From Escherichia phage SSBS18_WS_10_728, in the sequence record MT322327.1: a stretch of 64,000 nt of DNA, one strand, 5' to 3'. How positions within the stretch are numbered: position 1 is the stretch's first letter; each line of letters begins with the position of its first letter. The position numbers were made by a program, and so were the translations under genes. The notes beneath the pieces were generated by a model. It worked only from the letters and a program-made list of their open reading frames with translations. It was not told the DNA's origin and made no database searches. Shown in pieces: positions 228-58,868 of the stretch.

Positions 228-303
228 TGGAGAATCCGAAGGGACTCGAACCCTTATAAACCTGTTTTGCAGACAGGCACATAGCCATTTCTGTCACGGA
301 TTC
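228..303 (-). tRNA. tRNA-Cys (anticodon GCA)
   Basis: Manual fold: acceptor GAATCCG/CGGATTC, T-arm GGGTTCGAGTCCC, anticodon loop CUGCAAA, encoded CCA. Confidence 0.6.
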
Positions 304-307
304 AAAT

Positions 308-400
308 TGGAGGAAGATACCAGACTTGAACTGGTACACCGATTTCTCAGCTACTGGCAGTTTAGCAAACTGCTCCCTTACCTTTTAGGGTTAATCTTCC
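308..400 (-). tRNA. tRNA-Ser (anticodon GCU), class II with long variable arm
   Basis: Acceptor GGAAGAT/ATCTTCC, anticodon stem GCAGT/ACTGC with loop UUGCUAA, T-arm ACCAGTTCAAGTCTGGT, CCA encoded; 93 nt. Confidence 0.55.
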
Positions 401-401
401 A

Positions 402-1136
402 TTATTTCTGTAATGCGTTCTTCATTTCTGGTGTTGCAATAGTGTCAATCACACCAGTTTTACAAGCATCATCAAACCAGTCTGGTAAGATACCTGCTAA
501 GAACCCATTGATATTCGTTTTAAGGTACTCTGCAATAAGGGCAGCTTCTTCTTCAATCATCTGAACAACTTCATCTGCATAAGCTGTAATCTTTGAAATA
601 CCTTCATTAATCTTATTAACAGCTTGGTTAGCTAAATCAGAAATAGTATCAAGACCTTTATCAATAGCATCCTGTAAGTCACTTAATACATCATTAACAC
701 CATCTAGTGTACTGTTAATCATATCCATAGCTTTTTGACCATACTCTGTAGCAACACCCATAATACCACTAAACGGTGTACAGCCAACTTGTTCCCCTGC
801 TGCACCCATAACATTAGAATAGCCTTTTGCTACCTGCATACGTGATGAAAACTCATCAATGGACTTTTGACCATAATCCGTCAGTGTTTTAGTGGTTGAT
901 GTAGTGCTTGTCAGACTCGTTGTAAAGCTGTTAAGCAGAACTGTTGTAAGTCCAGCAGCAACAAGTTTATCCTTTATTGTAGGGTCTGTTACAGAGCTAA
1001 TAGAGCTTACAAGTGATGTAGAGGCAGCTACGGTTCCACCTAGAACTGCTGCACCAGTAATAAGGGGATTAGAAAACCCTCTACCGGTTTTTAAGAGATT
1101 AAAAATCTCCTTACCTTGTTCTGTCATCTCTTTCAT
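402..1136 (-). CDS. hypothetical protein (Thr/Ser-rich)
   Basis: ORF 402..1199; start moved to internal ATG at 1136 (AAAGG RBS) because the 5' end overlaps tRNA-Phe. Confidence 0.45.
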   Translation of the reverse strand: MKEMTEQGKEIFNLLKTGRGFSNPLITGAAVLGGTVAASTSLVSSISSVTDPTIKDKLVAAGLTTVLLNSFTTSLTSTTSTTKTLTDYGQKSIDEFSSRMQVAKGYSNVMGAAGEQVGCTPFSGIMGVATEYGQKAMDMINSTLDGVNDVLSDLQDAIDKGLDTISDLANQAVNKINEGISKITAYADEVVQMIEEEAALIAEYLKTNINGFLAGILPDWFDDACKTGVIDTIATPEMKNALQK

Positions 1137-1152
1137 TAAGCACCTTTGAAAT

Positions 1153-1228
1153 TGGTAGTCCAGTGGGATTTGAACCCTCTTCTCATGTTTTTCAGACACG
1201 CGCTTTAACCATATAAGCTACTTGGACT
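1153..1228 (-). tRNA. tRNA-Phe (anticodon GAA)
   Basis: Acceptor stem 6/7 bp, T-arm GGGTTCAAATCCC, anticodon loop CUGAAAA, CCA encoded. Confidence 0.6.
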
Positions 1229-1234
1229 ATAAAT

Positions 1235-1310
1235 TGGGGTGACCTACGGGATTTGAACCCGTATAGACCATGTTCACAGCATGGGTCATTACCGTTTATG
1301 ATAAGGCCAC
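1235..1310 (-). tRNA. tRNA-His (anticodon GUG)
   Basis: Acceptor GTGGCCT/AGGTCAC, T-arm ACGGGTTCAAATCCCGT, anticodon loop CUGUGAA. Confidence 0.55.
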
Positions 1311-1341
1311 ATTTAAGGACTCTCGTAAGAACCCTTAGAAG

Positions 1342-1417
1342 TGGCAGCGGCATAAGGATTTGAACCTTAATAAGACAGCTTCAGAGACTGCTGCATTGCC
1401 AGTTATGCTATACCGCT
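1342..1417 (-). tRNA. tRNA-Gln (anticodon CUG), tentative
   Basis: D-stem GCAT/ATGC, anticodon stem GCAGT/GCTGT with loop CUCUGAA, T-arm TAAGGTTCAAATCCTTA, CCA encoded. Confidence 0.5.
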
Positions 1418-1422
1418 AAATT

Positions 1423-1501
1423 TGGTACTCCATATCGGATTCGAACCGATACATAACACAGATTTTAAGTCTGGCCTCTCTGCCAATTGGAGTAATGGAG
1501 C
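1423..1501 (-). tRNA. tRNA with Leu-type anticodon UAA but short variable arm (isotype uncertain)
   Basis: T-arm ATCGGTTCGAATCCGAT, CCA encoded, D-loop AATTGGCAGAG shared with tRNA at 2246..2323; anticodon loop CUUAAAA. Confidence 0.4.
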
Positions 1502-1503
1502 AT

Positions 1504-1578
1504 TGGCGGGGGATGTTGGAATTGAACCAACTTCTTCGATTTCAAAGACCGAGGTTTTAACCTTGTAAACTAATCCCC
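1504..1578 (-). tRNA. tRNA-Gln (anticodon UUG), tentative
   Basis: T-arm GTTGGTTCAATTCCAAC, anticodon stem TCGGT/ATCGA with loop CUUUGAA, CCA encoded. Confidence 0.5.
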
Positions 1579-1587
1579 TTTAAATCT

Positions 1588-2145
1588 TTACTTTCTCAGT
1601 GGATGAATAAAGAATGCCAACATAACTCTTTCCCTTGAGAATGCTCTTTCTTCTGGGACAACACTTTTAAGTTTCCAACCAACATAAATTCTCCAGTAGA
1701 ATTGTTTACCAAAGACTTTAATTGATGGGATAAAAGCGAATAACCCCCAAGCATTGCTGTTCCACATTAGGAGATAACCTGTCTGATTATCTTCAGGGTC
1801 AGAGCTTACGTTGATATTACCTTTCCACTTAGTAACATCTTTTACATCTCTTCCTAACACATGGTAAGAGAAGTTATAAGCTTTGTTTCTCCAGAGCCAT
1901 CCAACTCTCTGCAAATAGACACCCAGCTTACCAATCTTTCTAATCTTAGCCCATCTTTTAATGTGACCTTCATCACCATCAATAGGGTTGTCATATGTCT
2001 CCATCCATCTGAATCCAAAAGGTAGATGTCCTTTCTTCTCACTATAGAATGGAACTACAAAAGGTGCTAAGATAACTGCTAAGATTGCTGCCAATGGGTC
2101 TAGCAAAGCTAGGAAAATCCATGAAGCATACTTCAAATATCTCAT
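1588..2145 (-). CDS. hypothetical membrane-anchored protein inside the tRNA cluster
   Basis: 185-aa ORF, hydrophobic N-terminus, AAGAGG RBS 8 nt upstream of ATG. Confidence 0.55.
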   Translation of the reverse strand: MRYLKYASWIFLALLDPLAAILAVILAPFVVPFYSEKKGHLPFGFRWMETYDNPIDGDEGHIKRWAKIRKIGKLGVYLQRVGWLWRNKAYNFSYHVLGRDVKDVTKWKGNINVSSDPEDNQTGYLLMWNSNAWGLFAFIPSIKVFGKQFYWRIYVGWKLKSVVPEERAFSRERVMLAFFIHPLRK

Positions 2146-2164
2146 TTAAATAGCCTCTTTAAAT

Positions 2165-2240
2165 TGGCGCAGGATAAGGGATTCGAACCCCTATTAACAG
2201 CTTCGTAGACTGTTGCTCTATCCATTTGAACTAATCCTGC
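2165..2240 (-). tRNA. tRNA-Arg (anticodon ACG)
   Basis: Acceptor GCAGGAT/ATCCTGC perfect, anticodon stem ACAGT/GCTGT with loop CUACGAA, T-arm GGGGTTCGAATCCCTT. Confidence 0.55.
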
Positions 2241-2245
2241 AAAAT

Positions 2246-2323
2246 TGGTGTTCCAAGACGGATTCGAACCGTCACTAGTACAAGGTTTGAGCTTGCATCC
2301 TCTGCCAATTGGGATACTGGAAC
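2246..2323 (-). tRNA. tRNA with Leu-type anticodon CAA but short variable arm (isotype uncertain)
   Basis: T-arm GACGGTTCGAATCCGTC, anticodon stem GCAAG/CTTGT with loop CUCAAAC, CCA encoded. Confidence 0.4.
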
Positions 2324-2324
2324 A

Positions 2325-2399
2325 TGGTACTCACTAAAGGACTTGAACCTTTTTCTTCATCTTGTAATGGTGATGTTTTACCATATAAACTAAGCGAGT
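2325..2399 (-). tRNA. tRNA-Val (anticodon UAC), tentative
   Basis: D-stem GTTT/AAAC, T-arm AAAGGTTCAAGTCCTTT, anticodon loop AUUACAA. Confidence 0.4.
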
Positions 2400-2494
2400 G
2401 TGGAAGAGGTCTGAAGTTGTGCCGCTAACTCAACTCCGTGGAATTTGTTACGGTCTTCAGTTGACACCAGCGGTCTTTCACTTGACCTCTGAAT

Positions 2495-2571
2495 TGGTGC
2501 TGCTCACAGGACTCGAACCTGCATTTCCATCCTTACAAGGGATGTGTAATAGCCAATTATACGAAAGCAGC
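2495..2571 (-). tRNA. tRNA-Thr (anticodon UGU)
   Basis: Anticodon stem CATCC/GGATG perfect with loop CUUGUAA, T-arm GCAGGTTCGAGTCCTGT, CCA encoded. Confidence 0.6.
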
Positions 2572-2577
2572 ATTGTT

Positions 2578-2652
2578 TGGAGCATCCAGAGGGAATCGAA
2601 CCCTCAACCTCAGTTTGGAAGACTGTAATTTTCCCGTTTAAACTATGGATGC
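2578..2652 (-). tRNA. tRNA-Gly (anticodon UCC)
   Basis: Acceptor GCATCCA/TGGATGC perfect, T-arm GAGGGTTCGATTCCCTC, anticodon loop CUUCCAA. Confidence 0.55.
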
Positions 2653-2658
2653 ACTAAT

Positions 2659-2734
2659 TGGTGGAGTCACTGAGAATTGAACTCAGTTCCCAAGTTTGCA
2701 AAACTCGAATTTTAACCATATAAACTATGACCCC
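2659..2734 (-). tRNA. tRNA-Ala (anticodon UGC)
   Basis: Acceptor GGGGTCA with G3:U70 pair, T-arm CTGAGTTCAATTCTCAG, anticodon loop UUUGCAA. Confidence 0.6.
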
Positions 2735-2740
2735 AATGTT

Positions 2741-2816
2741 TGGTACAGGTGGAGGGAATTGAACCCATCGTCTTACTGATTAAGAGTCAGCCGCATAACC
2801 ATTTTGCTACACCTGC
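2741..2816 (-). tRNA. tRNA-Lys (anticodon CUU), tentative
   Basis: Acceptor GCAGGTG/CACCTGT, anticodon stem GCTGA/TCAGT with loop CUCUUAA, weak T-stem; paralog of tRNA at 4057..4132. Confidence 0.45.
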
Positions 2817-2823
2817 ATTAATT

Positions 2824-2901
2824 TGGTAGGAGACAAGGGATTCGAACCCTCAAACACCAACTTCTAAGGATGGTAGGTTTACCAATTACCGTCAATCTCC
2901 C
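2824..2901 (-). tRNA. tRNA with Leu-type anticodon UAG but short variable arm (isotype uncertain)
   Basis: T-arm GAGGGTTCGAATCCCTT, CCA encoded, anticodon loop CUUAGAA with 4/5-bp stem. Confidence 0.4.
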
Positions 2902-3156
2902 ATTAAATCTTTTTAGAGAACTTCTAAGAACCTAAGCAACAAGGTTCCACAACAAGCTGTAATAACCTTAGAAGCCCTCTAAAAAGACCTAAATAGGTCT
3001 TTACATAGTCTTGTTTAATCCGGTGACTAGAACCTTTGGAGAGCTTGATATTATCTCTTCTCCGTGACACCTACTAGGTGCTTTACTGTGCGTGTACGAC
3101 AATACACGAGGGATAAACCGAAAATGCGAGCAAGCATGACGGTGTAAATCTTATTA

Positions 3157-3246
3157 GGCGGTAAGTAAAGGAGTCGAACCCTCACCGTATCTCTACAGTG
3201 GCAACAGTTTTCAAGACTGTTTGGCTGCCATTAGCCGCTACCTACC
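3157..3246 (-). tRNA. tRNA-Ser (anticodon UGA), class II
   Basis: Acceptor GGTAGGT/ACTTACC, anticodon stem ACAGT/ACTGT perfect with loop CUUGAAA, long variable arm, T-loop TTCGACT; 3' CC encoded. Confidence 0.6.
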
Positions 3247-3259
3247 CCTAATAAGACTT

Positions 3260-3342
3260 TGGCATGGGACGGAGGAGTTGAACCCCTTTGAAACGGTTTT
3301 GGAGGCCGTTGCTCATGCCTTAGAGTCTTAACATCGTCCCAC
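3260..3342 (-). tRNA. tRNA, possibly Trp (anticodon CCA); atypical length
   Basis: Acceptor GTGGGAC/GTCCCAT, T-arm AGGGGTTCAACTCCTCC, CCA encoded, hairpin with loop CUCCAAA; D region ~7 nt too long in my fold. Confidence 0.35.
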
Positions 3343-3484
3343 ACTATAATTCGAAGCTTACCGTATTTTCGCAACACTGTAAAGCCCCTTCTCAGATTAT
3401 TTACATGTTCTGGAAAACATGAGATACAGACCACCTCCTTACACGGAGACCCGATAAGGTCGTCTAAGCAATCTGCTAACTATT

Positions 3485-3561
3485 TGGCACACCCTACAGG
3501 ATTCGAACCTGTAACTCAATGATTAGAAGTCATTTGCTCTGTCCAGTTGAACTAAGGGTGC
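3485..3561 (-). tRNA. tRNA-Arg (anticodon UCU)
   Basis: Anticodon stem AATGA/TCATT perfect with loop CUUCUAA, T-arm ACAGGTTCGAATCCTGT, CCA encoded. Confidence 0.6.
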
Positions 3562-3854
3562 ATTAATCTTTAAAGACTCTCTTAGAAAGCCCTTAAAGAT
3601 GCCCACTTTATTAATCATACCGTGGGCTAGTACGCCAAATTCTTTGATGAGGGATTGGAAGACCTCACTGGTGTTTAGCCTATCAAGCTACTGCCAGAAA
3701 AACATTGTCGTTTGCATTTATTTTAAATTTGCAAAATAGACGCTACGCAACGAAAACTATTCAGAATATGTACAACAAATTTCCCCACATTGTGTTACGT
3801 CTAACGCTCATGTATTGGTGTTTGAATTATACATATTATGAATCATTTTTAGTT

Positions 3855-3883
3855 ACTATAAAGCGGTCACATCTCAATGTCAA
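3855..3883 (-). promoter_or_regulatory. sigma70-like promoter reading leftward into tRNA genes
   Basis: Minus strand: -35 TTGACA, 17-bp spacer, -10 TATAGT. Confidence 0.5.
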
Positions 3884-3898
3884 CAACTTTATTGAAAT

Positions 3899-3974
3899 TG
3901 GTACTGGTAGGTGGAATCGAACCACCGATATTCCCTTATCAGGGGAGTGTTATAACCTTCTTAACTATACCAGC
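3899..3974 (-). tRNA. tRNA-Ile (anticodon GAU)
   Basis: Acceptor GCTGGTA/TACCAGT, T-arm GGTGGTTCGATTCCACC, anticodon loop CUGAUAA. Confidence 0.55.
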
Positions 3975-3975
3975 T

Positions 3976-4052
3976 TGGAGGTTCAGATGGGAATCGAACC
4001 CACATTCATAGGGCTTATGAAACCCCTGCATTACCTTATCTGCGACTGAACC
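3976..4052 (-). tRNA. tRNA-Met (anticodon CAU; elongator or Ile2-type)
   Basis: Acceptor GGTTCAG/CTGAACC perfect, anticodon stem GGGGT/GCCCT with loop UUCAUAA, T-arm GTGGGTTCGATTCCCAT. Confidence 0.55.
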
Positions 4053-4056
4053 ATAT

Positions 4057-4132
4057 TGGTAGAAGTGGAGGGATTCGAACCCATCGCCTGTCAGATTAAA
4101 AGTCTGCCGCATCACCATTCTGCTACACTTCC
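4057..4132 (-). tRNA. tRNA-Lys (anticodon UUU)
   Basis: Acceptor GGAAGTG/CACTTCT, anticodon stem GCAGA/TCTGA with loop CUUUUAA, CCA encoded. Confidence 0.5.
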
Positions 4133-4333
4133 ATTAAATTATCTTTGTAGATAAGCTACCCAGACTTGCTTAAGGTCTGTAGCGATGTGCCTTGTTGGGT
4201 TTAAATCTAGAATTTACCCTTTCACCCTTTGTGGTCGCATACTCACAGGTAAGCTTAATAGCTCACCTACAAAGATAATTACCAGACCGTTGTTTATCAT
4301 CTTAAGTGCTACCATTACACCAACTCGACATCT

Positions 4334-4357
4334 GCCGAGTGAAGGAATCGAACCTTC
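4334..4357 (-). other. orphan tRNA T-arm-like element (possible tRNA remnant)
   Basis: Perfect T-arm GAAGGTTCGATTCCTTC on minus strand but no matching 5' acceptor strand or CCA nearby. Confidence 0.3.
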
Positions 4358-4393
4358 GCCTTTTCTTTACCGGAGAAATAGATTGTTTAAGTT

Positions 4394-4413
4394 TTGCTGT
4401 AAACGGTCTTCTG
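4394..4413. repeat. tRNA-cluster repeat copy A (TTGCTG-N5-GGTCTTCTG)
   Basis: One of four 20-nt copies; CCAGACC partner at 4281 and 4424. Confidence 0.6.
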
Positions 4414-4483
4414 TAAATTTGTTGAGCCAGACCAAGTTTTAAATTTTTTCAAAATTAAATTGGCTTGAAAATATCATACGTGC

Positions 4484-4503
4484 TTGCTGAATTTGGTCTT
4501 CTG
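4484..4503. repeat. tRNA-cluster repeat copy B
   Basis: TTGCTGAATTTGGTCTTCTG; CCAGACC partner at 4424. Confidence 0.6.
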
Positions 4504-4591
4504 CTCCTTTAAAGAACACTCGTAAGAACCCTTTAAGGGAGGGGCTAAAATAGCCCTCTCAAAACATCATCTTGAAATACTTATTATAATT

Positions 4592-4669
4592 TGGCGGTTA
4601 CGAAGGGATTTGAACCCTCATCATCTCCCGTGACAGGGGAGTATTTTAACCAGATTAAACTACATAACC
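4592..4669 (-). tRNA. tRNA-Asp (anticodon GUC)
   Basis: Anticodon stem CTCCC/GGGAG perfect with loop CUGUCAC, T-arm GAGGGTTCAAATCCCTT, CCA encoded. Confidence 0.65.
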
Positions 4670-4675
4670 TTTATT

Positions 4676-4763
4676 TGGTGTGCCGTGTAGGAGTCGAACC
4701 TACCGAGTCTCAATGACAAGGGATTTACAGTCCCCACCGCTACCATCTACGGGATAACGACAC
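4676..4763 (-). tRNA. tRNA-Tyr (anticodon GUA), class II
   Basis: Acceptor GTGTCGT/ACGGCAC, anticodon loop CUGUAAA, long variable arm, T-arm GTAGGTTCGACTCCTAC, CCA encoded; 88 nt. Confidence 0.6.
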
Positions 4764-4772
4764 ATTTAAATT

Positions 4773-4849
4773 TGGCGGTTAGTCAGGGATTCGAACCCTG
4801 TGCCATTCGCTTAACAGGCGACCGCACATACCTTATGTGCTTCCTAACC
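4773..4849 (-). tRNA. tRNA-Asn (anticodon GUU)
   Basis: D-stem GCAC/GTGC, anticodon loop CUGUUAA, T-arm CAGGGTTCGAATCCCTG, CCA encoded. Confidence 0.6.
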
Positions 4850-4900
4850 TTAATACATTGCCAGACCGTGTTTTTTCTTTTATCCGCAAAAAGTATTTTG

Positions 4901-4920
4901 TTGCTGAATACGGTCTTCTG
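4901..4920. repeat. tRNA-cluster repeat copy C
   Basis: TTGCTGAATACGGTCTTCTG, 6 nt from 3' end of tRNA-Met; CCAGACC partner at 4861. Confidence 0.6.
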
Positions 4921-4926
4921 CAAAAT

Positions 4927-5003
4927 TGGAGGCGGGTGCAGGAGTCGAACCTGCCGATACCATGCTAATGAGACATGTGAGACGCCCTTTCTCTATACCC
5001 GCA
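4927..5003 (-). tRNA. tRNA-Met (anticodon CAU), possible initiator
   Basis: Anticodon stem CATGT/GCATG with loop CUCAUUA, T-arm GCAGGTTCGACTCCTGC, unpaired 1:72 position, CCA encoded. Confidence 0.5.
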
Positions 5004-5067
5004 ATTCTTAATGACCAGACCAAATCTCTTCTTTGTCCGATTTACCTTCAGATGAATAAGATTAAGT

Positions 5068-5087
5068 TTGCTGTAATTGGTCTTCTG
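5068..5087. repeat. tRNA-cluster repeat copy D
   Basis: TTGCTGTAATTGGTCTTCTG, 7 nt from 3' end of tRNA-Glu; CCAGACC partner at 5015. Confidence 0.6.
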
Positions 5088-5094
5088 TCAAAAC

Positions 5095-5172
5095 TGGCGT
5101 TCCAGAAGGGATTTGAACCCTCAAATATCCACTTTGAAAGAGTGGTGACTTTACCATTTTGTCCACTGGAAC
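5095..5172 (-). tRNA. tRNA-Glu (anticodon UUC)
   Basis: Anticodon stem CCACT/AGTGG perfect with loop CUUUCAA, T-arm GAGGGTTCAAATCCCTT, CCA encoded. Confidence 0.6.
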
Positions 5173-5179
5173 ATTAATT

Positions 5180-5256
5180 TGGTCTCTGTTGGAGGACTTG
5201 AACCTCCGGCCTTACCGCCCCAAACGGAACGCTCTACCAAGCTGAGCTAAACAGAG
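5180..5256 (-). tRNA. tRNA-Pro (anticodon UGG)
   Basis: Acceptor CTCTGTT/AACAGAG perfect, anticodon loop UUUGGGG, T-arm GGAGGTTCAAGTCCTCC, CCA encoded. Confidence 0.6.
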
Positions 5257-53147: not shown

Positions 53148-55290
53148 ATGGAAAACGTAGATTTTAAAAACTTACATTTAGTTGGTGATACAGAAACTGA
53201 TGGTTTACTCCTTGAGTTCACTAAGGTGCACGTAATGGCTTTCGCAGACTATAAATCTGACGATGAAGAGCCACCTGTATGGGTCTTTACAGACGAGCCT
53301 ATCCTCGGTCACAAGTATACCAAGCACATTAAGGGTGGTTTACGTGAAGGTGTTGAGTTTGCGTTAAAGGCAAAACGACTTTGCATCCATAATGGTCTGG
53401 GATATGACTGGTGGGTTTTCAATCACATCGCACCTGATTTGTGGAACTTTGATAATCCAAAGTGTAAACCGTGGAGTAATTTCTTTCAGGACTCTCTTAT
53501 CCAGTCTCGTGTTCAGTGGATGGATAGACCAACTCCAAAAGGCTATAAAGGTGCTCATGGCTTGGCTGCATGGGGTGCTCGTGTTGGTGTACGTAAACCA
53601 GAGATTGAACATTGGGGTGTGTGGAATGCAGAAATCTTCACTCGTGTTGTGGAAGATATCCGTATTAACGCCAAAACTAAACGTGCACTGGATAATGAAT
53701 ACCTGAAGTTAAAGAAGTGTGGTATAGACACTTATGAAACCTATATGCGAGCTAAAGAAACATCTTTCTGGATGAGTCAACAAGCTATCAATGGTTGGAA
53801 AGCTGATAAAGAGCTTATGGAGTTCCATGTAAAGGAGCTTGACAAGTTGACTAATGAGCTTGCTTCGGAAGTTGAACCACACCTTCCTCCAACTATTAAG
53901 ACCAAAGGTAAAGTCACTGGAGAAGAGTTTGCAAAAGCTTGGAATGAGTATGTGGAAGCGTTCGGTCATGCAGATGGACTGAAGAGAATTACCAAGTACC
54001 CTAAGACGAAGTACCGTCAGCAGGTACGTAACGGTGAGATGCAGACATACGAAATCAAACCATTTGGTAAGCCAACTACAAAGATTTTTAACATTGAAAA
54101 GAGAAATTGTTATACACCAACCAACTCTGTAACTGGTGAAGAGTACAAGGAAGGTTTTGTAGCAATGAAGGATGCTCGTGCAATTTGCAATGAGTTGAAT
54201 GCAAAGATTGGTAAGAAATGCAAAGACTGGAAGCCAGTAAAAACAGTTAAAACTGTGAAGTACTATAACAGTCATGTTGTTAACCACTTTGAGCTTGAGT
54301 CAAGTCGCTACACAGGTTTGATTGATGCACCATATACCCCAATTGAGTTCGAAGTTTCTCGTATGACTCAGGTAGCAGTTGTTAAAGACTACTTGAAATC
54401 AGTTGGTTGGATTCCAGATGACTGGAACTACAAGAAAGACTCAGATGGTCGTCCTGTCAAAGTTTGTCGTTTCAAAGACAACAAAAAGATGATTACAAAG
54501 CATCCTAAGTGGCAGGAGATGGTTGAACGGTGTGGCTTGAGTTATGTTGAACATGAAGGTGTCCAGTACATTGAACATAACTGGTCTGTGAAGAAGTACA
54601 CAGATTTGCTTGAGCCTTGCTTAATCCGTACTTCACCAAAACTTACTGAATCTTCTTACGATACGATTGAAGGTGAGCTTGGACAGAAGATTGCTAAGTA
54701 CTACACTTTGATGCACCGACGCAGAACTATTGAGAACTCAAAGGATGATGAAAAAGGCTGGTTGAACCAGATTCGTCCTGATGGTCGCCTTAGTGCTGGT
54801 GCAATGGTATTTGGTACTTCAACTGGACGTATGACACAATATGGTATTGTAAACGTACCGTCTGGTGCTGCTGTCTATGGGGAACCGATGAGGGCAGTGT
54901 GGATTTGTGAAGAAGGTACTAACGTTGTCTCTGTAGACATGAACTCAGCCCAGCTAGTTCTCCTTTGTAACTTTATGGGTGACAAAGAGTTCACTAAAGC
55001 AGTAACTGAAGGTAAAGAGTCAGTAGAATTTACCAAGCAAGAAGATGGGAGATATTATTGCAAACATCTTGATAAGTACCTTAATCCAGAAACTGATAAG
55101 TATCTTCGTTATGATGCTGAGAATGACCTCTATGAAGTCTACACAGGTACTGATGCACATACACTGAACAGTATCTATTTTGCATTGAACAAAGAGGATG
55201 ACATTATTCGTTGTAGAGAAACTCAGGATGAAGAACTTCTTCACGAGATAACTAAAGGCCGTAAGAAGGCTAAGAATGGTATCTATGCGT
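53148..55290 (+). CDS. DNA polymerase family A, exon 1 (3'-5' exonuclease and N-terminal polymerase domains)
   Basis: Exo I motif VGDTETDGL; motif A VDMNSAQLVLL; AGAGGGA RBS before ATG 53148; reading frame is interrupted where polymerase motif B begins. Confidence 0.75.
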
Positions 55291-55557
55291 CAGTGGCGCA
55301 TGTAAAACGTTGTGAATTGCTGGAAGCCTAAGTCTGAGAAGATACGGTAATCAGCAGCGAAGCCTCTTGAGAGGAACGTTCAGAGACTATCGAAAAGCAT
55401 ACTTAATGTATGAACTGAGTAGAGTAGGGTGGTAAGCTAATGACCATTCCCAAGTGCAACGGTAGCATCCTGCTACGTGATATAGTCCGACACTCCGTAG
55501 AAATGCGGAGAAGTTCATAAGAGAACTGGTACACCTTGCGAGTGTATTGACCAGATG
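55291..55557 (+). ncRNA. group I self-splicing intron in the DNA polymerase gene
   Basis: Exon 1 ends in U paired to G of internal guide GCGCA (P1 = exon UGCGU with intron GCGCA); intron ends in G; splicing restores in-frame motif B ...IYALLFGAGDEKF... Confidence 0.7.
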
Positions 55558-56114
55558 TATTGTTCGGTGCAGGTGATGAGAAGTTTGCCAAAACTATCAA
55601 GGCATCATCTACGGAAGAAGGTGCATTGACTAAACAAACTTACTATATGCGTCTGCCAAAGATTAAGAAGTTACTTGATAGCTTAGAAGCCGATTTTAAG
55701 GCGTCTAAAAAGGCTCTGGAAGAGGTTTTCGGGAAGAACTCTTCAATTGCTAAAGGTGGTTATATCAGGGTTGCTGGAGCATGGATATGGTGCAAATCTC
55801 CACATAAACTGCTGAACTACCTTCTGATGAGTTCGGAAGCACAGATTCAGAATGAGGCCATCAACCTAGCAGCAAGAAAAGCTTGTGAAGATGGTCTGAC
55901 AAAACTGAATGCTCGAAAACCAGCTATCGGAGCAAGGTTACTTCTGGCATATCACGATGAAAATAGTTGGGAATGTCCAGAGGGTATGACACATGATATG
56001 AAAGCAATTGCTGACTGGATGTATGGACAAGCTTCAAAAAACTTAGGTTTGAGGAAAGAAACACTTGTAACTGGCACAGCAAAGGTTGGTAAGAGTTGGT
56101 ATGAGGTACATTGA
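55558..56114 (+). CDS. DNA polymerase family A, exon 2 (motifs B and C)
   Basis: LFGAGDEKFAK matches T7-type motif B YGAGDEK; motif C YHDE; no ATG start, in frame after splicing. Confidence 0.75.
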
Positions 56115-56117
56115 TTG

Positions 56118-56651
56118 ATGGATTTTATTTCACAAGAACGTTTAAAGGAGCTGCTGCACTATGACCCCGAAACAGGGGTCTTTACTTGGCTTCGTAGAGA
56201 AGGTAAATCAAGAGCTGTTAGTGTTTTTAACAGTAACTATGCAGGAAAGGTAGCAGGTAATATCCAGACTGATTCAAGTGGTCATAAACAGATTAGTATC
56301 TATTTTGACAAGAAAGCACATAAAGCACACAGACTCGCATGGCTTTACGTGTATGGCAAGATGCCAAAAGGTATCATTGACCATATCAACGGAGACTCAC
56401 TTGACAACAGGATTGTAAACTTAAGGGAAGCAGATGATTTTCAAAGTGCTTGGAATAAAGGTAAACCAGTCACCAATAAATCTGGGTACAAGGGTGTAAG
56501 CCTTAAGAAGAAGTCTGGTAAGTGGGTCGCACAGATAAGTTATAAAGGTAAGAAGATGTTTTTAGGTTACCATGATACACCTGAAGAAGCCCATAAAGCT
56601 TACTGTGAAGCTGCTGTGAAACTCCACGGAGAGTTTGCAAAACTATCTTGA
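56118..56651 (+). CDS. HNH endonuclease with AP2 DNA-binding domain
   Basis: HNH motif DHINGDSLDNRIVNLR and AP2-like GYKGVSLKKKSGKWVAQISYKGKKMFLGYH; directly after the polymerase. Confidence 0.65.
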   Translation: MDFISQERLKELLHYDPETGVFTWLRREGKSRAVSVFNSNYAGKVAGNIQTDSSGHKQISIYFDKKAHKAHRLAWLYVYGKMPKGIIDHINGDSLDNRIVNLREADDFQSAWNKGKPVTNKSGYKGVSLKKKSGKWVAQISYKGKKMFLGYHDTPEEAHKAYCEAAVKLHGEFAKLS

Positions 56652-56702
56652 CAAGGTGCTCATGGAAGAGTACCTTATACAATATCTTATATAGGAGGTG
56701 AT

Positions 56703-56930: not shown

Positions 56931-57137
56931 ATGGAAGTCCTAGTAAACTATATCTATTGTTATGATGTTGTTCACTCCACTACAACCGTAGCTCAACGTA
57001 ACCCAATCGTCCCACGAGAAGGTGAGTTTGTTCGAATCGATGGTTGGACTTACACTGTGGAAAGCATCATTCATAAGTTTGATGTTGCTGGTGATGTACA
57101 GGTTATTGACGTAGAGATTGGTGGTAAGAGAAAATGA
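56931..57137 (+). CDS. hypothetical protein
   Basis: 68-aa ORF. Confidence 0.4.
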   Translation: MEVLVNYIYCYDVVHSTTTVAQRNPIVPREGEFVRIDGWTYTVESIIHKFDVAGDVQVIDVEIGGKRK

Positions 57138-57352
57138 CTGTAGAAGATAAATTAAAGAACGCAGTTCTTACAGAAGATGGTGCGCTTGAAACATTCATTC
57201 TTCGTGTTGATGGTAAGTTATTCCGGTGTCGTTGTGGGTCAAACTGTTTCCATAAACCAGATAAAAACGACTTAGAGCTTTACGCATGTAATGCTTGCGA
57301 CACTTGGTATCACTCAGAGGTTAAAAATGACAATTCTATACAAACAAAATAA
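57134..57352 (+). CDS. zinc-ribbon protein
   Basis: CRCGSNC...CNAC motifs. Confidence 0.45.
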   Translation: MTVEDKLKNAVLTEDGALETFILRVDGKLFRCRCGSNCFHKPDKNDLELYACNACDTWYHSEVKNDNSIQTK

Positions 57353-58427
57353 AGATGGCTCTTTTAACGTCTGGTCATGCGTTGCTGTAGGTGACAAAGT
57401 TATTACAACCTACGGTAAAGAAAATGGCAAGATGATGTTTGAAGAGTATACAGCAGAACCGAAAAACATCGGTAAAAAGAATGAGCGTAACGCTGAACAG
57501 CAAGCTCTCTTTGAAGTTGCTGCTAAGTATAAAAAGCAGGTTGACCGTAAAGGCTACGCTTACACAAAAGAGTCTGCACAGAATACTGAGAAGGTAGGTG
57601 TGCAGCTTGCTCATGATGCTGCAAAGGTTAGTCATGCAAAGTATCTGAAGTTCCCTGCTGACGCTCAACCAAAACTTGATGGTGTCCGTTGTAGGATTTC
57701 AAGAGATGCTGATTCAGTCAGCTTCACGGCTTATTCTCGTGAGAATACTGTTTACAACGTCCCAGAAGAACTAATCCCAGATTTGCTTTTGTTGCTTAAA
57801 TTTCATCCACAAGTAGAAGACTTTGATGGTGAGATTTATGCTCATGGTTGGGACTTAGAAGATATTGTGTCTATGATTAAGAATGCTGACAATCCAGACC
57901 GACATCTACTCCAGTTCTACTGGTACGATATCTGTGACAGTACTAAGACGTGGCCTGAGCGTAGAGATATTATTGAGACTTCACCATTGAATGACTTTAG
58001 AGATGGCTGTAAAGTTGTCCCTGTTAAGTCTCGTCGTGTAAATTCTTGGGAAGAGTTCGATGAAGCTCATGATAAGTGGGTTGAAGTTAAGTTTGAAGGT
58101 GCAATGTACCGTTCAATCTCTGAAGACTCCTTTTATGAGTGCTGTCACCGTTCATACTTCTTGATTAAGCACAAGAAGATGCACACTGAAGAGTTTAAAG
58201 TAACTGGTGTAAAGACCGATAAACGTGGTCATGGCAAGTTCGTTGTAGAGACTCTTCCTAACGTCTTTGTAGATGTCTCATGGAAGACTACTCATGAGAA
58301 GAAACAGTATCTTGCTGAGCATCCTGAAGAGTTTATCGGGAAACCTTTAACGGTTCAGTTCCAGAAGATGACTCGTAAGGGGTCTTTACAGTTTCCTGTT
58401 GGTCTCGTTATTAGGGATTATGAGTAA
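57327..58427 (+). CDS. ATP-dependent DNA ligase
   Basis: Motif I KLDGVR with downstream EGAMYR and IKHKK; start at ATG 57327 (GAGG RBS). Confidence 0.65.
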   Translation: MTILYKQNKDGSFNVWSCVAVGDKVITTYGKENGKMMFEEYTAEPKNIGKKNERNAEQQALFEVAAKYKKQVDRKGYAYTKESAQNTEKVGVQLAHDAAKVSHAKYLKFPADAQPKLDGVRCRISRDADSVSFTAYSRENTVYNVPEELIPDLLLLLKFHPQVEDFDGEIYAHGWDLEDIVSMIKNADNPDRHLLQFYWYDICDSTKTWPERRDIIETSPLNDFRDGCKVVPVKSRRVNSWEEFDEAHDKWVEVKFEGAMYRSISEDSFYECCHRSYFLIKHKKMHTEEFKVTGVKTDKRGHGKFVVETLPNVFVDVSWKTTHEKKQYLAEHPEEFIGKPLTVQFQKMTRKGSLQFPVGLVIRDYE

Positions 58428-58760: not shown

Positions 58761-58868
58761 TTATAAAAAATCTGCCAAATAAGCTATAAAATCTGTTGAC
58801 AAGTCAGGTGTTATAGCTTATTTTTATACTCAATGTAATACAAAATTTAATATAACTTTGAGGTCATT

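What the first reader, a model, noticed from the sequence alone, without database searches (positions are those of the whole stretch)
53148..56651. Group I intron splitting the DNA polymerase gene, with a free-standing HNH-AP2 endonuclease downstream
The polymerase frame stops at 55331, but an in-frame continuation (LFGAGDEKF, motif B) resumes at 55558. A 267-nt element (55291-55557) has the hallmarks of a group I intron: 5' exon ends in U, P1 pairing exon UGCGU with intron guide GCGCA including the U-G wobble, and a terminal G. Splicing gives the contiguous motif-B sequence ...AKNGIYALLFGAGDEKFAK.... The intron has no ORF, but an HNH-AP2 endonuclease follows the polymerase.
Basis: seen in the sequence. 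Interest (0 to 1): 0.6.

Follow-up and report, generated by a model that had tools for sequence, protein, structure and literature searches.

The report
ORF-less group I intron in phage polymerase
A 267-base self-splicing-type (group I) intron interrupts the DNA polymerase gene of this Felix O1-like phage, with a separate homing-endonuclease gene just downstream; the reading is correct, but the intron is already noted in the literature and correctly annotated in at least one public record.

Summary
Window 55291-55557 is a 267-nt group I intron (Rfam RF00028, 60.6 bits against a gathering score of 50). It splits the family A DNA polymerase gene of a Felixounavirus inside motif B. Intronless relatives (Felix O1, bumzen) lack exactly these 267 nt, and removing them gives one 899-aa ORF reading ...AKNGIYALLFGAGDEKF.... 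The downstream ORF (56118-56651) is an HNH_3 + AP2 protein.

The element is not new. The phage Meda announcement (2019) reports an ORF-less intron in its polymerase gene, and its GenBank record joins the two exons. Fang et al. (2018) list the endonuclease of the long form as intron-encoded. Most records still annotate two "DNA polymerase" CDSs.

Among relatives the same site is empty, holds the ORF-less intron, holds a 311-nt deletion remnant, or holds an about 800-nt form with an Endo VII-type (DHHRN) endonuclease gene in P6. Short exon patches identical between otherwise divergent phages, centred on the insertion site, show horizontal transfer of the intron.

The HNH-AP2 gene is one of five divergent alleles in a present/absent slot after the polymerase stop codon. 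It reassorts independently of the intron, so a functional link (collaborative homing) is not supported, though not excluded.

The parts
53148..55290 (+). DNA polymerase exon 1 (family A; N-terminal part through the first half of motif B). It ends with U55290, the first base of a split Leu codon.
   Evidence: ORF listing; Pfam DNA_pol_A, weak; alignment to T7 gp5; same start as the CDS annotated in BPS17W1.
55291..55557 (+). Group I intron, 267 nt, with no ORF; it begins CAGUGG and ends with G55557.
   Evidence: Rfam RF00028 at 60.6 bits, gathering score 50. Exactly absent from intronless alleles. 96 phage records carry it.
55285..55301 (+). P1: exon AUGCGU (55285-55290) pairs with the internal guide GCGCAU (55296-55301), with U55290.G55296 at the 5' splice site.
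   Evidence: Sequence; invariant and fully paired in 10 variants; also the P1 of the Rfam alignment.
55558..55562 (+). Proposed P10 partner: exon 2 UAUUG pairs with intron CAGUG (55291-55295).
   Evidence: Proposed from the sequence. Every intron-containing allele has T|TATTG here, whereas intronless alleles use other synonymous codons. This pairing is an inference.
55308..55461 (+). Core domain: P3 (55308-13 with 55456-61), P4 (55318-23 with 55351-56), P5/P5a (55326-28 with 55346-48; 55332-35 with 55340-43, GNRA loop), P6/P6a (55357-58 with 55378-79; 55363-66 with 55371-74), the 5' strand of P7 (55385-89), P7.1 (55398-402 with 55408-12) and P7.2 (55428-33 with 55443-48).
   Evidence: Rfam alignment; the unconstrained MFE fold recovers most of these helices; pair counts are 100% paired, with a CG<->UA change in P6a and GU<->GC in P7.2.
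55462..55557 (+). P8 (55462-66 with 55472-76), J8/7 and the 3' strand of P7 (55483-87), P9 with a GAAA loop (55493-99 with 55504-10), P9.1 (55513-16 with 55523-26), P9.2/9.2a (55527-30 with 55550-53; 55531-34 with 55542-45), and the terminal G55557.
   Evidence: compensatory CG<->UA change in P8.
55329..55331 (+). In-frame TAA that ends translation of unspliced RNA 13 codons into the intron.
55558..56114 (+). DNA polymerase exon 2 (second half of motif B to the C terminus). There is no start codon with a ribosome-binding site of its own.
   Evidence: Pfam DNA_pol_A profile positions 218-381; alignment to T7 gp5; sequence.
56118..56651 (+). Free-standing HNH_3 + AP2 endonuclease gene ('allele A'), 177 aa. 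Its ATG lies 3 nt after the polymerase stop codon, and GAGGT lies inside the polymerase 3' end.
   Evidence: Pfam; AP2 matches to plant AP2/ERF structures; present/absent and allelic among relatives.
56648..56680 (+). Conserved motif TTGACAAGGTGCTCATGGAAGAGTACCTTATAC. It forms the right-hand edge of the HNH slot and overlaps the HNH stop codon.
   Evidence: Present directly after the polymerase stop (plus 6 nt) in phages without the HNH gene; pattern search. Its function is not tested.

Best explanation
The window comes from a Felix O1-like myophage (Felixounavirus). Its family A DNA polymerase gene is interrupted inside motif B (the O-helix) by a 267-nt group I intron of IA-like architecture: P7.1 and P7.2 are present and P2 is absent.

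Splicing (inferred). The pre-mRNA is expected to self-splice. An external guanosine attacks after U55290, which is held in P1 by the guide GCGCAU. The 3' exon is aligned by a 5-bp P10, and the exons are ligated after G55557. This gives one 899-aa polymerase. Splicing itself is inferred, not shown.

Relation to the longer forms. This copy is the endonuclease-less form of an intron that is, or recently was, mobile within the genus. Sister phages carry the same core with a roughly 160-codon Endo VII-motif (DHHRN, F-CphI-like) endonuclease gene in the P6 loop, or with a remnant of that gene. That endonuclease most likely cuts intronless polymerase genes at or near the insertion site. Repair from an intron-containing genome then copies in the intron together with about 30-120 nt of flanking exon.

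The ORF-less form is maintained and spread by recombination between co-infecting relatives. It should be immune to cleavage because the intron splits the target site.

The downstream HNH-AP2 gene is a separate selfish element. It is one of five divergent alleles of a free-standing homing-endonuclease cassette that sits, or not, between the polymerase stop codon and a conserved downstream motif. It moves independently of the intron.
For: Intron identity
- Rfam hit above the gathering score.
- An insert of exactly 267 nt relative to Felix O1 and bumzen.
- A spliced ORF of 899 aa that restores motif B collinear with T7 gp5.
- All 76 proposed pairs are kept in 10 variants, with compensatory CG<->UA changes in P6a and P8, a GU<->GC change in P7.2, and a GNRA loop preserved in three versions.
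- The MFE fold alone recovers most helices.

Related forms at the same site
- Inserts of 0, 267/268, 311 and 802/805 nt occur.
- The ORF of the long form is Pfam Endonuclease_7 at E = 1e-19, with the DHDH, R, CxxC and N residues intact. It is 33% identical over 96% of its length to F-CphI.
- The 311-nt form keeps both ends of the ORF insert.

Horizontal transfer
- The window matches intronless L003-type phages almost perfectly from +30 to the polymerase stop, yet is identical to the otherwise divergent FG1m from -120 to +30.
- BPS17W1 and warpig show similar patches of about 30 nt on each side, on other backgrounds.
- The four-gamete test fails for 37 of 78 site pairs inside the intron.

Independence from the HNH gene
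- The ORF-less intron occurs with HNH alleles A, C-Felix, C-FG1m and C-warpig.
- Allele A also occurs in intronless phages.
- In the phage collection, 96 records carry the intron, 54 carry allele A or B, and 32 carry both.
- The co-converted patches stop more than 500 nt short of the HNH gene.

Prior reports
- PMC6486253, the joined CDS in MH586731, and PMC6083498.
Against: - No RNA or biochemical data exist here, so splicing is inferred from sequence and from the fact that these phages are viable isolates with an essential polymerase.
- The variants are very similar, so covariation support is thin: two compensatory pairs. The structure was also derived from the window sequence, which biases the slid-partner control.
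- Cleavage by the DHHRN protein at this site has not been tested.
- The ORF-less form has one and the same P6 hairpin in several genomic backgrounds. It therefore spreads without its own endonuclease, and I cannot say whether this happens by ordinary recombination, by an endonuclease supplied in trans, or by repeated exchange of the P6 region.
- Every ORF-less-intron genome I examined (9 distinct, counting Meda) has some HNH allele in the slot. A weak dependence on a free-standing endonuclease is therefore not ruled out.
Confidence: 0.8

Rival explanations
1. Collaborative (trans) homing. The free-standing HNH-AP2 enzyme cuts intronless polymerase genes at the intron insertion site. The ORF-less intron protects its own genome from this cut and is copied into cut genomes. 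This would parallel F-CphI with the psbA intron of cyanophage S-PM2, and T3 gp5.3 with the phiI polymerase intron.
For: - The arrangement is the right one: an ORF-less intron with an endonuclease gene 558 nt downstream of it and directly after the same gene.
- T3 gp5.3, in the same position after a family A polymerase gene, is also a Pfam HNH_3 protein.
- Allele A co-occurs with the intron about twice as often as independence would predict: 32 observed against about 16 expected from 96 and 54 in about 330 records. In the rows sampled it never occurs with the ORF-containing form.
- All ORF-less-intron genomes examined have some HNH allele in the slot.
- Intronless phages carrying allele A all have an unusual cluster of synonymous changes at the insertion site (GCCC|TGTTATTTGGAGCCGGAGAC). 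These could make the site resistant to cleavage.
Against: - Allele A sits in intronless genomes (bumzen, L007, L009 and others), so the intron is not needed for self-protection there.
- The same ORF-less intron occurs next to four alleles that are only 45-52% identical to each other. They are unlikely to share one target.
- The window and BPS17W1 look like allele-A genomes that received the intron, not donors. The co-converted patches are 30-150 nt long and do not extend to the HNH gene.
- The association is confounded by shared descent and by close physical linkage.
- A dedicated intronic endonuclease exists in sister phages.
Confidence: 0.1
2. The ORF-less intron is an immobile passenger. 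It is inherited vertically and occasionally reshuffled by ordinary homologous recombination, with no site-specific endonuclease involved in its present distribution. It is the end stage of the gain, degeneration and loss cycle of homing elements.
For: - The intron has no ORF.
- A 311-nt form is an evident ORF-deletion remnant, so endonuclease loss does occur in this lineage.
- Recombination among these phages is pervasive, even within the intron.
- The surrounding polymerase gene is itself a mosaic.
Against: At least three independent backgrounds carry short patches tightly centred on the insertion site. This pattern is expected from repair of a break at that site rather than from random crossovers. 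Intact DHHRN genes, with all catalytic residues, are present in an estimated 38 of 96 intron-bearing records.
Confidence: 0.08
3. There is no splicing: the polymerase is made as two separate polypeptides (727-aa and 184-aa fragments) that assemble. This is what most GenBank records imply by annotating two DNA polymerase CDSs.
For: Many deposited records annotate two CDSs. An in-frame TTG lies at 55560.
Against: - The break falls inside the O-helix, between the equivalents of T7 Y526 and Y530.
- The second ORF has no ATG or GTG start and no ribosome-binding site.
- The insert scores as a complete group I intron.
- It is absent without trace from close relatives whose polymerase is one ORF.
- Its stems keep pairing through compensatory changes.
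Confidence: 0.02

Closest known systems
The same intron in other Felixounaviruses: ORF-less form in Salmonella phage Meda (PMC6486253; GenBank MH586731); endonuclease-bearing form in JH2, EC6 and FSL SP-010 (PMC6083498)
   Same: Same gene, same insertion point and same exon context (TATGCGT|TATTGTTCGG). Meda's 268-nt intron is identical to the window's at 260 of 268 positions, and its polymerase is annotated as a joined CDS followed by an HNH gene. JH2 and EC6 carry the same core with the ORF in P6.
   Different: There is no difference of kind. The window's copy has a GAGA P5a loop and a P8 loop 1 nt shorter, and it is paired with HNH allele A rather than Meda's 513-nt allele. None of these introns has been shown experimentally to splice or to home.
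Group IA2 introns in DNA polymerase genes of T7-like phages phiI and W31, with I-TslI in P6a, and the free-standing T3 gp5.3 (Bonocora & Shub 2004 and 2009, as summarised in PMC3428280 and PMC3984707)
   Same: A family A polymerase host gene; the endonuclease ORF, where present, sits in P6/P6a; P7.1 and P7.2 are present. A free-standing HNH_3 endonuclease gene lies directly after the polymerase gene in T3, as here.
   Different: The insertion site differs: Pol I position 881 for phiI and W31, against motif B here. The intronic endonuclease here is Endo VII/DHHRN-type, not HNH. It shows no detectable similarity to gp5.3. The window's free-standing protein has an added AP2 domain and only marginal similarity to gp5.3 (E = 0.006). 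The shared target of I-TslI and gp5.3 was demonstrated experimentally; nothing comparable is known here.
F-CphI and the ORF-less psbA intron of cyanophage S-PM2 (collaborative homing; PMC6083498, PMC3984707)
   Same: [quoted passage not shown] The DHHRN endonuclease found in the long form of this intron is a full-length homologue of F-CphI (33% identity over 96% of its length).
   Different: Here the DHHRN protein is intron-encoded in sister phages and absent from the window. The free-standing gene belongs to a different family (HNH_3-AP2). The distribution data argue against the obligatory partnership seen in S-PM2.
ORF-containing group I-like insert in motif B of the polymerase gene of T7-like Yersinia phages (L030; the Berlin-type case cited in PMC6083498)
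   Same: It interrupts motif B of a family A polymerase. Its ORF is 51% identical to the Felixounavirus intronic DHHRN protein. It shares the P9.1 sequence AGUUCAUAAGAGAAC and the GAUAUAGUC core segment with the window intron.
   Different: It is inserted 11 nt further upstream (after nt 2 of codon F524, against nt 1 of the codon equivalent to F528, T7 numbering), with a different guide sequence. It scores only 26 bits in Rfam, below the gathering score, probably because of the ORF insert.
HNH-AP2 endonucleases of phages and cyanobacteria
   Same: An HNH nuclease domain followed by an AP2 DNA-binding domain. As I recall it, Felix O1 itself was one of the original examples. Pfam confirms both domains in the window protein and in the Felix O1 allele.
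   Different: That work concerned the origin of the plant AP2 domain. As far as I know, no target site or homing activity has been reported for the Felix O1-group proteins.

Membership tests
Group I intron (Rfam RF00028) | Covariance-model score at or above the curated gathering score | tested here: met
   60.6 bits against 50; full-length match to model positions 1-253; E = 6.7e-13 for the whole window.
Group I intron (Rfam RF00028) | 5' exon ends in U, paired with G in P1 formed with an internal guide sequence; 3'-terminal G | tested here: met
   U55290.G55296 lies within a 6-bp P1; G55557 is the last base; invariant in 10 variants.
Group I intron (Rfam RF00028) | Conserved core helices P3-P9, including the P3/P7 pseudoknot | tested here: met
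   All 76 proposed pairs form in all 10 variants. There are compensatory changes in P6a and P8. The Rfam alignment covers P3-P9 and the MFE fold recovers most helices. Covariation is limited by low diversity.
Group I intron (Rfam RF00028) | Precise removal restores an uninterrupted host gene | tested here: met
   An 899-aa ORF results. Intronless alleles differ by exactly 267 nt. The product is collinear with T7 gp5 motif B.
Group I intron (Rfam RF00028) | Guanosine-dependent self-splicing in vitro, or spliced mRNA in vivo | not testable with these tools
   No RNA data are available. Inferred only from the viability of the many isolates that carry the intron.
Subgroup IA2 | P7.1 and P7.2 between P7 and the 3' strand of P3, joined by a G-U-A-containing linker | tested here: inconclusive
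   Two hairpins fit (55398-55412 and 55428-55448), with GUAGAGUAG between them, and P7.2 shows a GU<->GC change. P2 is absent. No formal subgroup classifier was available.
Mobile (homing) group I intron | Intron-encoded homing endonuclease gene | tested here: not met
   The window's intron has no ORF. Sister alleles carry an Endonuclease_7/DHHRN ORF in P6.
Mobile (homing) group I intron | Presence/absence polymorphism at one site, with co-conversion of flanking exon sequence | tested here: met
   96 of about 330 related records carry it. Patches identical to divergent donors, centred on the insertion site, occur in at least three backgrounds.
Collaborative homing pair (free-standing endonuclease plus ORF-less intron) | ORF-less intron with a free-standing endonuclease gene adjacent to the interrupted gene | tested here: met
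   The HNH-AP2 gene starts 3 nt after the polymerase stop codon, 558 nt from the intron.
Collaborative homing pair (free-standing endonuclease plus ORF-less intron) | The endonuclease cuts the intronless allele at the insertion site, and the intron protects the genome that carries it | not testable with these tools
   Needs cleavage assays. Indirect evidence is negative: allele A is found in intronless genomes.
Collaborative homing pair (free-standing endonuclease plus ORF-less intron) | Intron and endonuclease gene are inherited or co-converted together | tested here: not met
   The intron occurs with four different HNH alleles, and allele A occurs with and without the intron. The co-converted patches do not reach the HNH gene.
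Free-standing HNH homing endonuclease (HNH_3-AP2 type) | HNH_3 nuclease domain with catalytic residues, plus a DNA-binding domain | tested here: met
   Pfam HNH_3 E = 9e-15 and AP2 E = 2e-11. The D-H...N...N-L-R motif is kept in all five alleles despite 45-52% identity. The AP2 domain matches plant AP2/ERF structures.
Free-standing HNH homing endonuclease (HNH_3-AP2 type) | Present/absent at a fixed intergenic position among close relatives | tested here: met
   The slot between the polymerase stop codon and the TTGACAAGGTGC motif is empty in wV8-type phages and filled by one of five alleles in others.
Free-standing HNH homing endonuclease (HNH_3-AP2 type) | Site-specific cleavage of genomes that lack the gene | not testable with these tools
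   No biochemical data.

The most novel reading that the evidence does not exclude
The free-standing HNH-AP2 enzymes after the polymerase gene may target the polymerase gene itself, near motif B, and supply in trans the break that lets the ORF-less intron spread. One phage genus would then hold every stage proposed for the birth and decay of mobile introns: an empty site with a free-standing endonuclease, an ORF-less intron with a free-standing endonuclease, an intron with an internal endonuclease, and a decayed remnant. Two observations hint at this. Every ORF-less-intron genome I examined has the slot filled. The Felix O1-type allele travels with a divergent block of the polymerase gene that starts about 60 nt past the insertion site.
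Probability: 0.1. Interest if true: 0.55.

Novelty: already known. Interest (0 to 1): 0.27.

Why it matters
- Annotation. This is a correct and useful call. Most public Felixounavirus records list two "DNA polymerase" genes and miss the intron. Propagating the joined CDS, as in phage Meda, would correct dozens of records of phages that are being developed for Salmonella and E. coli biocontrol.
- Biology. The intron adds a motif B insertion site to the polymerase-gene sites listed in PMC3428280 (Pol I 674, 676 and 881).
- Study system. These phages are easy to grow and cross. One site is naturally empty, occupied by an ORF-less intron, occupied by an endonuclease-bearing intron, or occupied by a decayed remnant. 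Beside it lies a slot with five exchangeable free-standing endonuclease alleles. That makes the genus a convenient system for testing how introns and homing endonucleases associate and part.
- Limits. None of this is surprising to a specialist, and the element itself is already on record.

Tried and rejected
- Other introns. I scanned the whole window with Rfam for further introns or RNAs. It found only this intron and 25 tRNAs.
- Paralogues. I looked for paralogues of the HNH-AP2 gene and of the Endo VII-type gene elsewhere in the window by tblastn and found none.
- Viral contig collection. The scan gave only 16 loci, too few for statistics. I used chimeric BLAST queries against the phage collection instead. 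These give counts but not a full per-record table, so the split of 96 intron records into about 46 ORF-less, 38 ORF-bearing and 12 remnant is extrapolated from an evenly spaced sample of rows.
- Promoter. I first took the TTGACA...TATACAAT motif after the HNH gene for a sigma-70 promoter. The consensus scan did not report it, and the spacer of 22-24 nt is too long, so I dropped that reading.
- Origin of the ORF-less P6 hairpin. I considered whether it arose by deletion of the ORF or is ancestral. The sequence does not decide this.
- Literature. Searches for a fuller description of the Felixounavirus intron found only passing mentions.
- Yersinia phage insert. The Rfam gathering-threshold scan of the Yersinia phage locus found nothing. 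A permissive scan gave a sub-threshold 26-bit hit.
- Not run. I did not run structure prediction or the large protein-database searches, because Pfam and direct comparisons answered the questions at hand.


Full report
**What is there.** The window comes from a Felix O1-like myophage (Felixounavirus). The 3.5-kb region is 95-96% identical to Salmonella phages SPJ41, BPS17W1 and many others. The polymerase ORF runs from 53148 to a TAA at 55329-55331. A second ORF in another frame covers 55560-56114, and a third covers 56115/56118-56651. Pfam places the first two in DNA_pol_A: weakly for each half, with the second matching profile positions 218-381. The third matches HNH_3 plus AP2, both above the curated cut-offs.

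**Is it a group I intron?** Yes.
- Rfam's RF00028 model matches 55279-55510 at 60.6 bits against a gathering score of 50. This is a full-length match with E = 1.5e-14, and it is the only such hit in the 64-kb window.
With an 867-nt query spanning the element, intronless relatives such as Felix O1, bumzen and wV8 match over 598-600 bp. Direct alignment shows that they lack precisely 267 nt.
- Joining 55290 to 55558 gives an 899-aa protein with no internal stop.
- The junction ...RKKAKNGIYA|LLFGAGDEKF... aligns without a gap to T7 gp5 RDNAKTFIYGFLYGAGDEK. The splice point therefore falls after the first base of the codon equivalent to T7 F528, between the equivalents of Y526 and Y530 in the O-helix.
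- From textbook equivalences (T7 K522 = Pol I K758; T7 Y526 = Pol I F762; T7 Y530 = Pol I Y766) this is about Pol I residue 764. That number is my own inference.
- The polymerase-gene intron sites listed in PMC3428280 are 674, 676 and 881, so this is a different site.

**Anatomy.**
- P1 pairs exon AUGCGU (55285-55290) with intron GCGCAU (55296-55301), with the U.G wobble at the splice site.
- A 5-bp P10 can form between intron CAGUG (55291-55295) and exon 2 UAUUG (55558-55562).
- P3, P4, P5/P5a (GNRA loop), P6/P6a, P7, P7.1, P7.2, P8, P9 (GAAA loop), P9.1 and P9.2 can all be drawn. The last base is G55557.
- There is no P2. P7.1 and P7.2 give the intron an IA2-like look, but I could not classify the subgroup formally.
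- An unconstrained energy fold recovers P3, P4, P5, P7.1, P7.2, P8, P9 and P9.1.
- In ten variants of the intron, all 76 proposed pairs form in every sequence. The only stem variation keeps the pairing: CG<->UA in P6a, CG<->UA in P8 and GU<->GC in P7.2. The P5a loop stays GNRA in three versions.
- The variants are close relatives and the structure was drawn from the window sequence, so this is supporting evidence rather than proof.

**Variation at the site.** Related phages show four states at the same position.

| State | Insert length | Examples |
|---|---|---|
| No intron | 0 | Most records, including Felix O1 and wV8 |
| ORF-less intron | 267/268 nt | Window, BPS17W1, Meda, tootiki, fBSPA4 and others |
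| Remnant | 311 nt | warpig, Mushroom |
| ORF-bearing intron | 802-805 nt | FG1m, BPS15Q2, JH2, EC6, Si3 |

- The cores are nearly identical, and the forms differ only in the P6 loop.
- The long form carries a roughly 160-codon ORF closed by a perfect 12-bp P6/P6a stem. The ORF matches Pfam Endonuclease_7 (E = 1e-19) and has the CxxC, DHDH, R, CxxC and N residues that define the DHHRN family.
- That protein is 33% identical over 96% of its length to F-CphI of cyanophage S-PM2.
- The 311-nt form keeps both ends of that insert, so it is a deletion derivative.
- In the phage collection, 96 records carry the intron in some form.

**Evidence that the intron moves.**
- Every intron-containing allele has the exon context TATGCGT|TATTGTTCGG. 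Intronless alleles use other synonymous codons there.
- Counting mismatches in 30-nt windows shows a clear mosaic. The window is almost identical to intronless L003-type phages from +30 to the end of the polymerase gene. From -120 to +30 it is instead identical to FG1m, which differs from it by up to 12 mismatches per 30 nt elsewhere.
- BPS17W1 is L003-like except for a patch of about 30 nt on each side that is identical to BPS15Q2.
- warpig is L010-like except for a patch of about 30 nt on each side that is identical to FG1m.
- tootiki and fBSPA4 have Felix O1-like backgrounds with a patch at the same place.
- Short patches centred on the insertion site, in several backgrounds, are what repair of a break at that site would leave.
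- Inside the intron, 37 of 78 pairs of informative sites show all four haplotypes, so the variants also recombine with each other.

**The HNH-AP2 gene.**
- It lies exactly between the polymerase stop codon and a conserved motif, TTGACAAGGTGCTCATGGAAGAGTACCTTATAC. Phages without the gene have only TTAGTA there.
- Five alleles occupy the slot: A (the window), B (85% identical to A), and three C types (45-52% identical). All are HNH_3 + AP2. All keep the D-H...N...N-L-R motif, and all end in the same 22 residues encoded by nearly identical DNA.
- The ORF-less intron is found next to alleles A, C-Felix, C-FG1m and C-warpig.
- Allele A is also found in intronless phages (bumzen, L007, L009, and further records).
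- ORF-bearing introns occur with a C allele (FG1m) or with an empty slot (BPS15Q2).
- In the phage collection, 54 records have a full-length A or B allele and 32 have both the intron and allele A.
- The excess over chance (about 16 expected) is confounded by shared descent and by 558 nt of physical linkage.
- The window and BPS17W1 look like allele-A genomes that received the intron, and the transferred patches stop far short of the HNH gene. I therefore read the HNH gene as an independent free-standing homing-endonuclease cassette.
- T3 gp5.3, the documented free-standing endonuclease after a T7-like polymerase gene, is also HNH_3. It lacks AP2 and is only marginally similar to allele A (E = 0.006).

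**Most likely mechanism.**
- Shown here: the intron's identity, its exact boundaries, the restored ORF, the polymorphism at the site, the transferred patches, and the independence of the two elements.
- Inferred: guanosine-initiated self-splicing of the pre-mRNA; cleavage of intronless alleles near the site by the DHHRN enzyme of the long form, with repair copying in the intron; and persistence and spread of the ORF-less form by recombination among co-infecting relatives, protected from cleavage because the intron splits the target.
- Translation of unspliced RNA would stop 13 codons into the intron. Exon 2 has no start signal of its own, so a split polymerase is very unlikely.

**What is already known.**
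- The Felix O1 genome paper stated that introns were absent, which is correct for that strain.
- Meda's GenBank record joins the exons (2,968 nt = 2,700 + 268). Its intron has the same context and is identical to the window's at 260 of 268 positions.
- Fang et al. (2018) list the Endo VII-motif proteins of JH2, EC6 and FSL SP-010 as intron-encoded.
- The SPJ41 paper mentions two introns from an ncRNA scan.
- I found no experimental work on splicing or homing of this intron.
- Most records annotate two polymerase CDSs.

**A related case elsewhere.** A T7-like Yersinia phage carries a 680-nt ORF-containing insert in motif B of its polymerase gene.
- It sits after the second base of codon F524, which is 11 nt upstream of the Felixounavirus site.
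- Its ORF is 51% identical to the Felixounavirus DHHRN protein.
- It shares the P9.1 sequence AGUUCAUAAGAGAAC and the GAUAUAGUC core segment with the window intron.
- It scores only 26 bits in Rfam, below threshold.
- This suggests that related intron and endonuclease lineages use neighbouring positions in the most conserved stretch of family A polymerases.

**Verdict.** The element is an ordinary, already reported ORF-less group I intron with a neighbouring free-standing homing-endonuclease gene. The survey adds context: a motif B insertion site, four states of the site, transfer footprints and five HNH alleles. It also argues against, without excluding, a functional partnership between the intron and the HNH gene.

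Noticed in passing
window 56648-56680 (also 58796-58829): The motif TTGACAAGGTGCTCATGGAAGAGTACCTTATAC overlaps the HNH stop codon. It is conserved at the right edge of the HNH slot in every relative, whether or not the HNH gene is present. A second match to the loose pattern TTGACA-N(19-24)-TTATAC lies at 58796. The spacer is too long for a standard sigma-70 promoter, so it may be a phage-specific regulatory site.
   Followed up: partly
L002, L025, L027 versus L003: polymerase exon 2, from about +60 after the insertion site to the stop codon: The Felix O1-type HNH allele always travels with a strongly divergent roughly 500-nt block of the polymerase 3' region (up to 17 mismatches per 30 nt), which begins about 60 nt past the intron site. 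The other alleles swap with a boundary right at the polymerase stop codon. This could be a co-conversion tract that marks a cleavage site for that allele inside the polymerase gene.
   Followed up: partly
window 56572-56651 and the equivalent positions in L002, L004, L006, L017: All five HNH-AP2 alleles, otherwise 45-85% identical, end in the same 22 residues (TPEEAHKAYCEAA[IV]KLHGEFAKLS), encoded by 92-100% identical DNA. This looks like a shared recombination arm for exchanging the cassette.
   Followed up: partly
L030 2417-3097 (Yersinia phage AKS2022HT54F_phi, T7-like): A 680-nt ORF-containing group I-like insert lies in motif B of the polymerase gene, 11 nt upstream of the Felixounavirus site. 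Its DHHRN endonuclease is related (51% identity) and its P9.1 sequence is identical. The record has no annotation.
   Followed up: yes
window 231-5256, minus strand: A cluster of 25 tRNA genes, as expected for a Felix O1-like phage.
   Followed up: no
window 56163-56180: A terminator-like hairpin (GACCCCGAAACAGGGGTC followed by TTTACTT) lies inside the 5' part of the HNH gene, over the conserved YDPETGVF coding segment. It is probably coincidental.
   Followed up: no
window 57134-58427: Overlapping ORFs (57134-57352 and 57291-58427) cover the DNA ligase region. Relatives annotate 'DNA ligase' in two or three pieces with extra small ORFs between them (BPS17W1, warpig, tootiki), so this region may also be polymorphic or inconsistently annotated.
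   Followed up: no
phage collection records MG065664/MG065668 (Campylobacter phages A132 and A126) and GU169904 (Staphylococcus phage SA1): Records labelled as Campylobacter or Staphylococcus phages match this Felixounavirus region at 92-95% identity. They are probably contaminated or mislabelled.
   Followed up: no
other phages, hits H116-H150: The conserved P3-P7 core of the intron has 73-94% matches over 40-130 nt in unannotated stretches of many unrelated phages, including Flavobacterium, Vibrio, Shewanella, Staphylococcus and Bacillus phages and jumbo Salmonella phages. This probably marks unannotated group I introns in those genomes.
   Followed up: no
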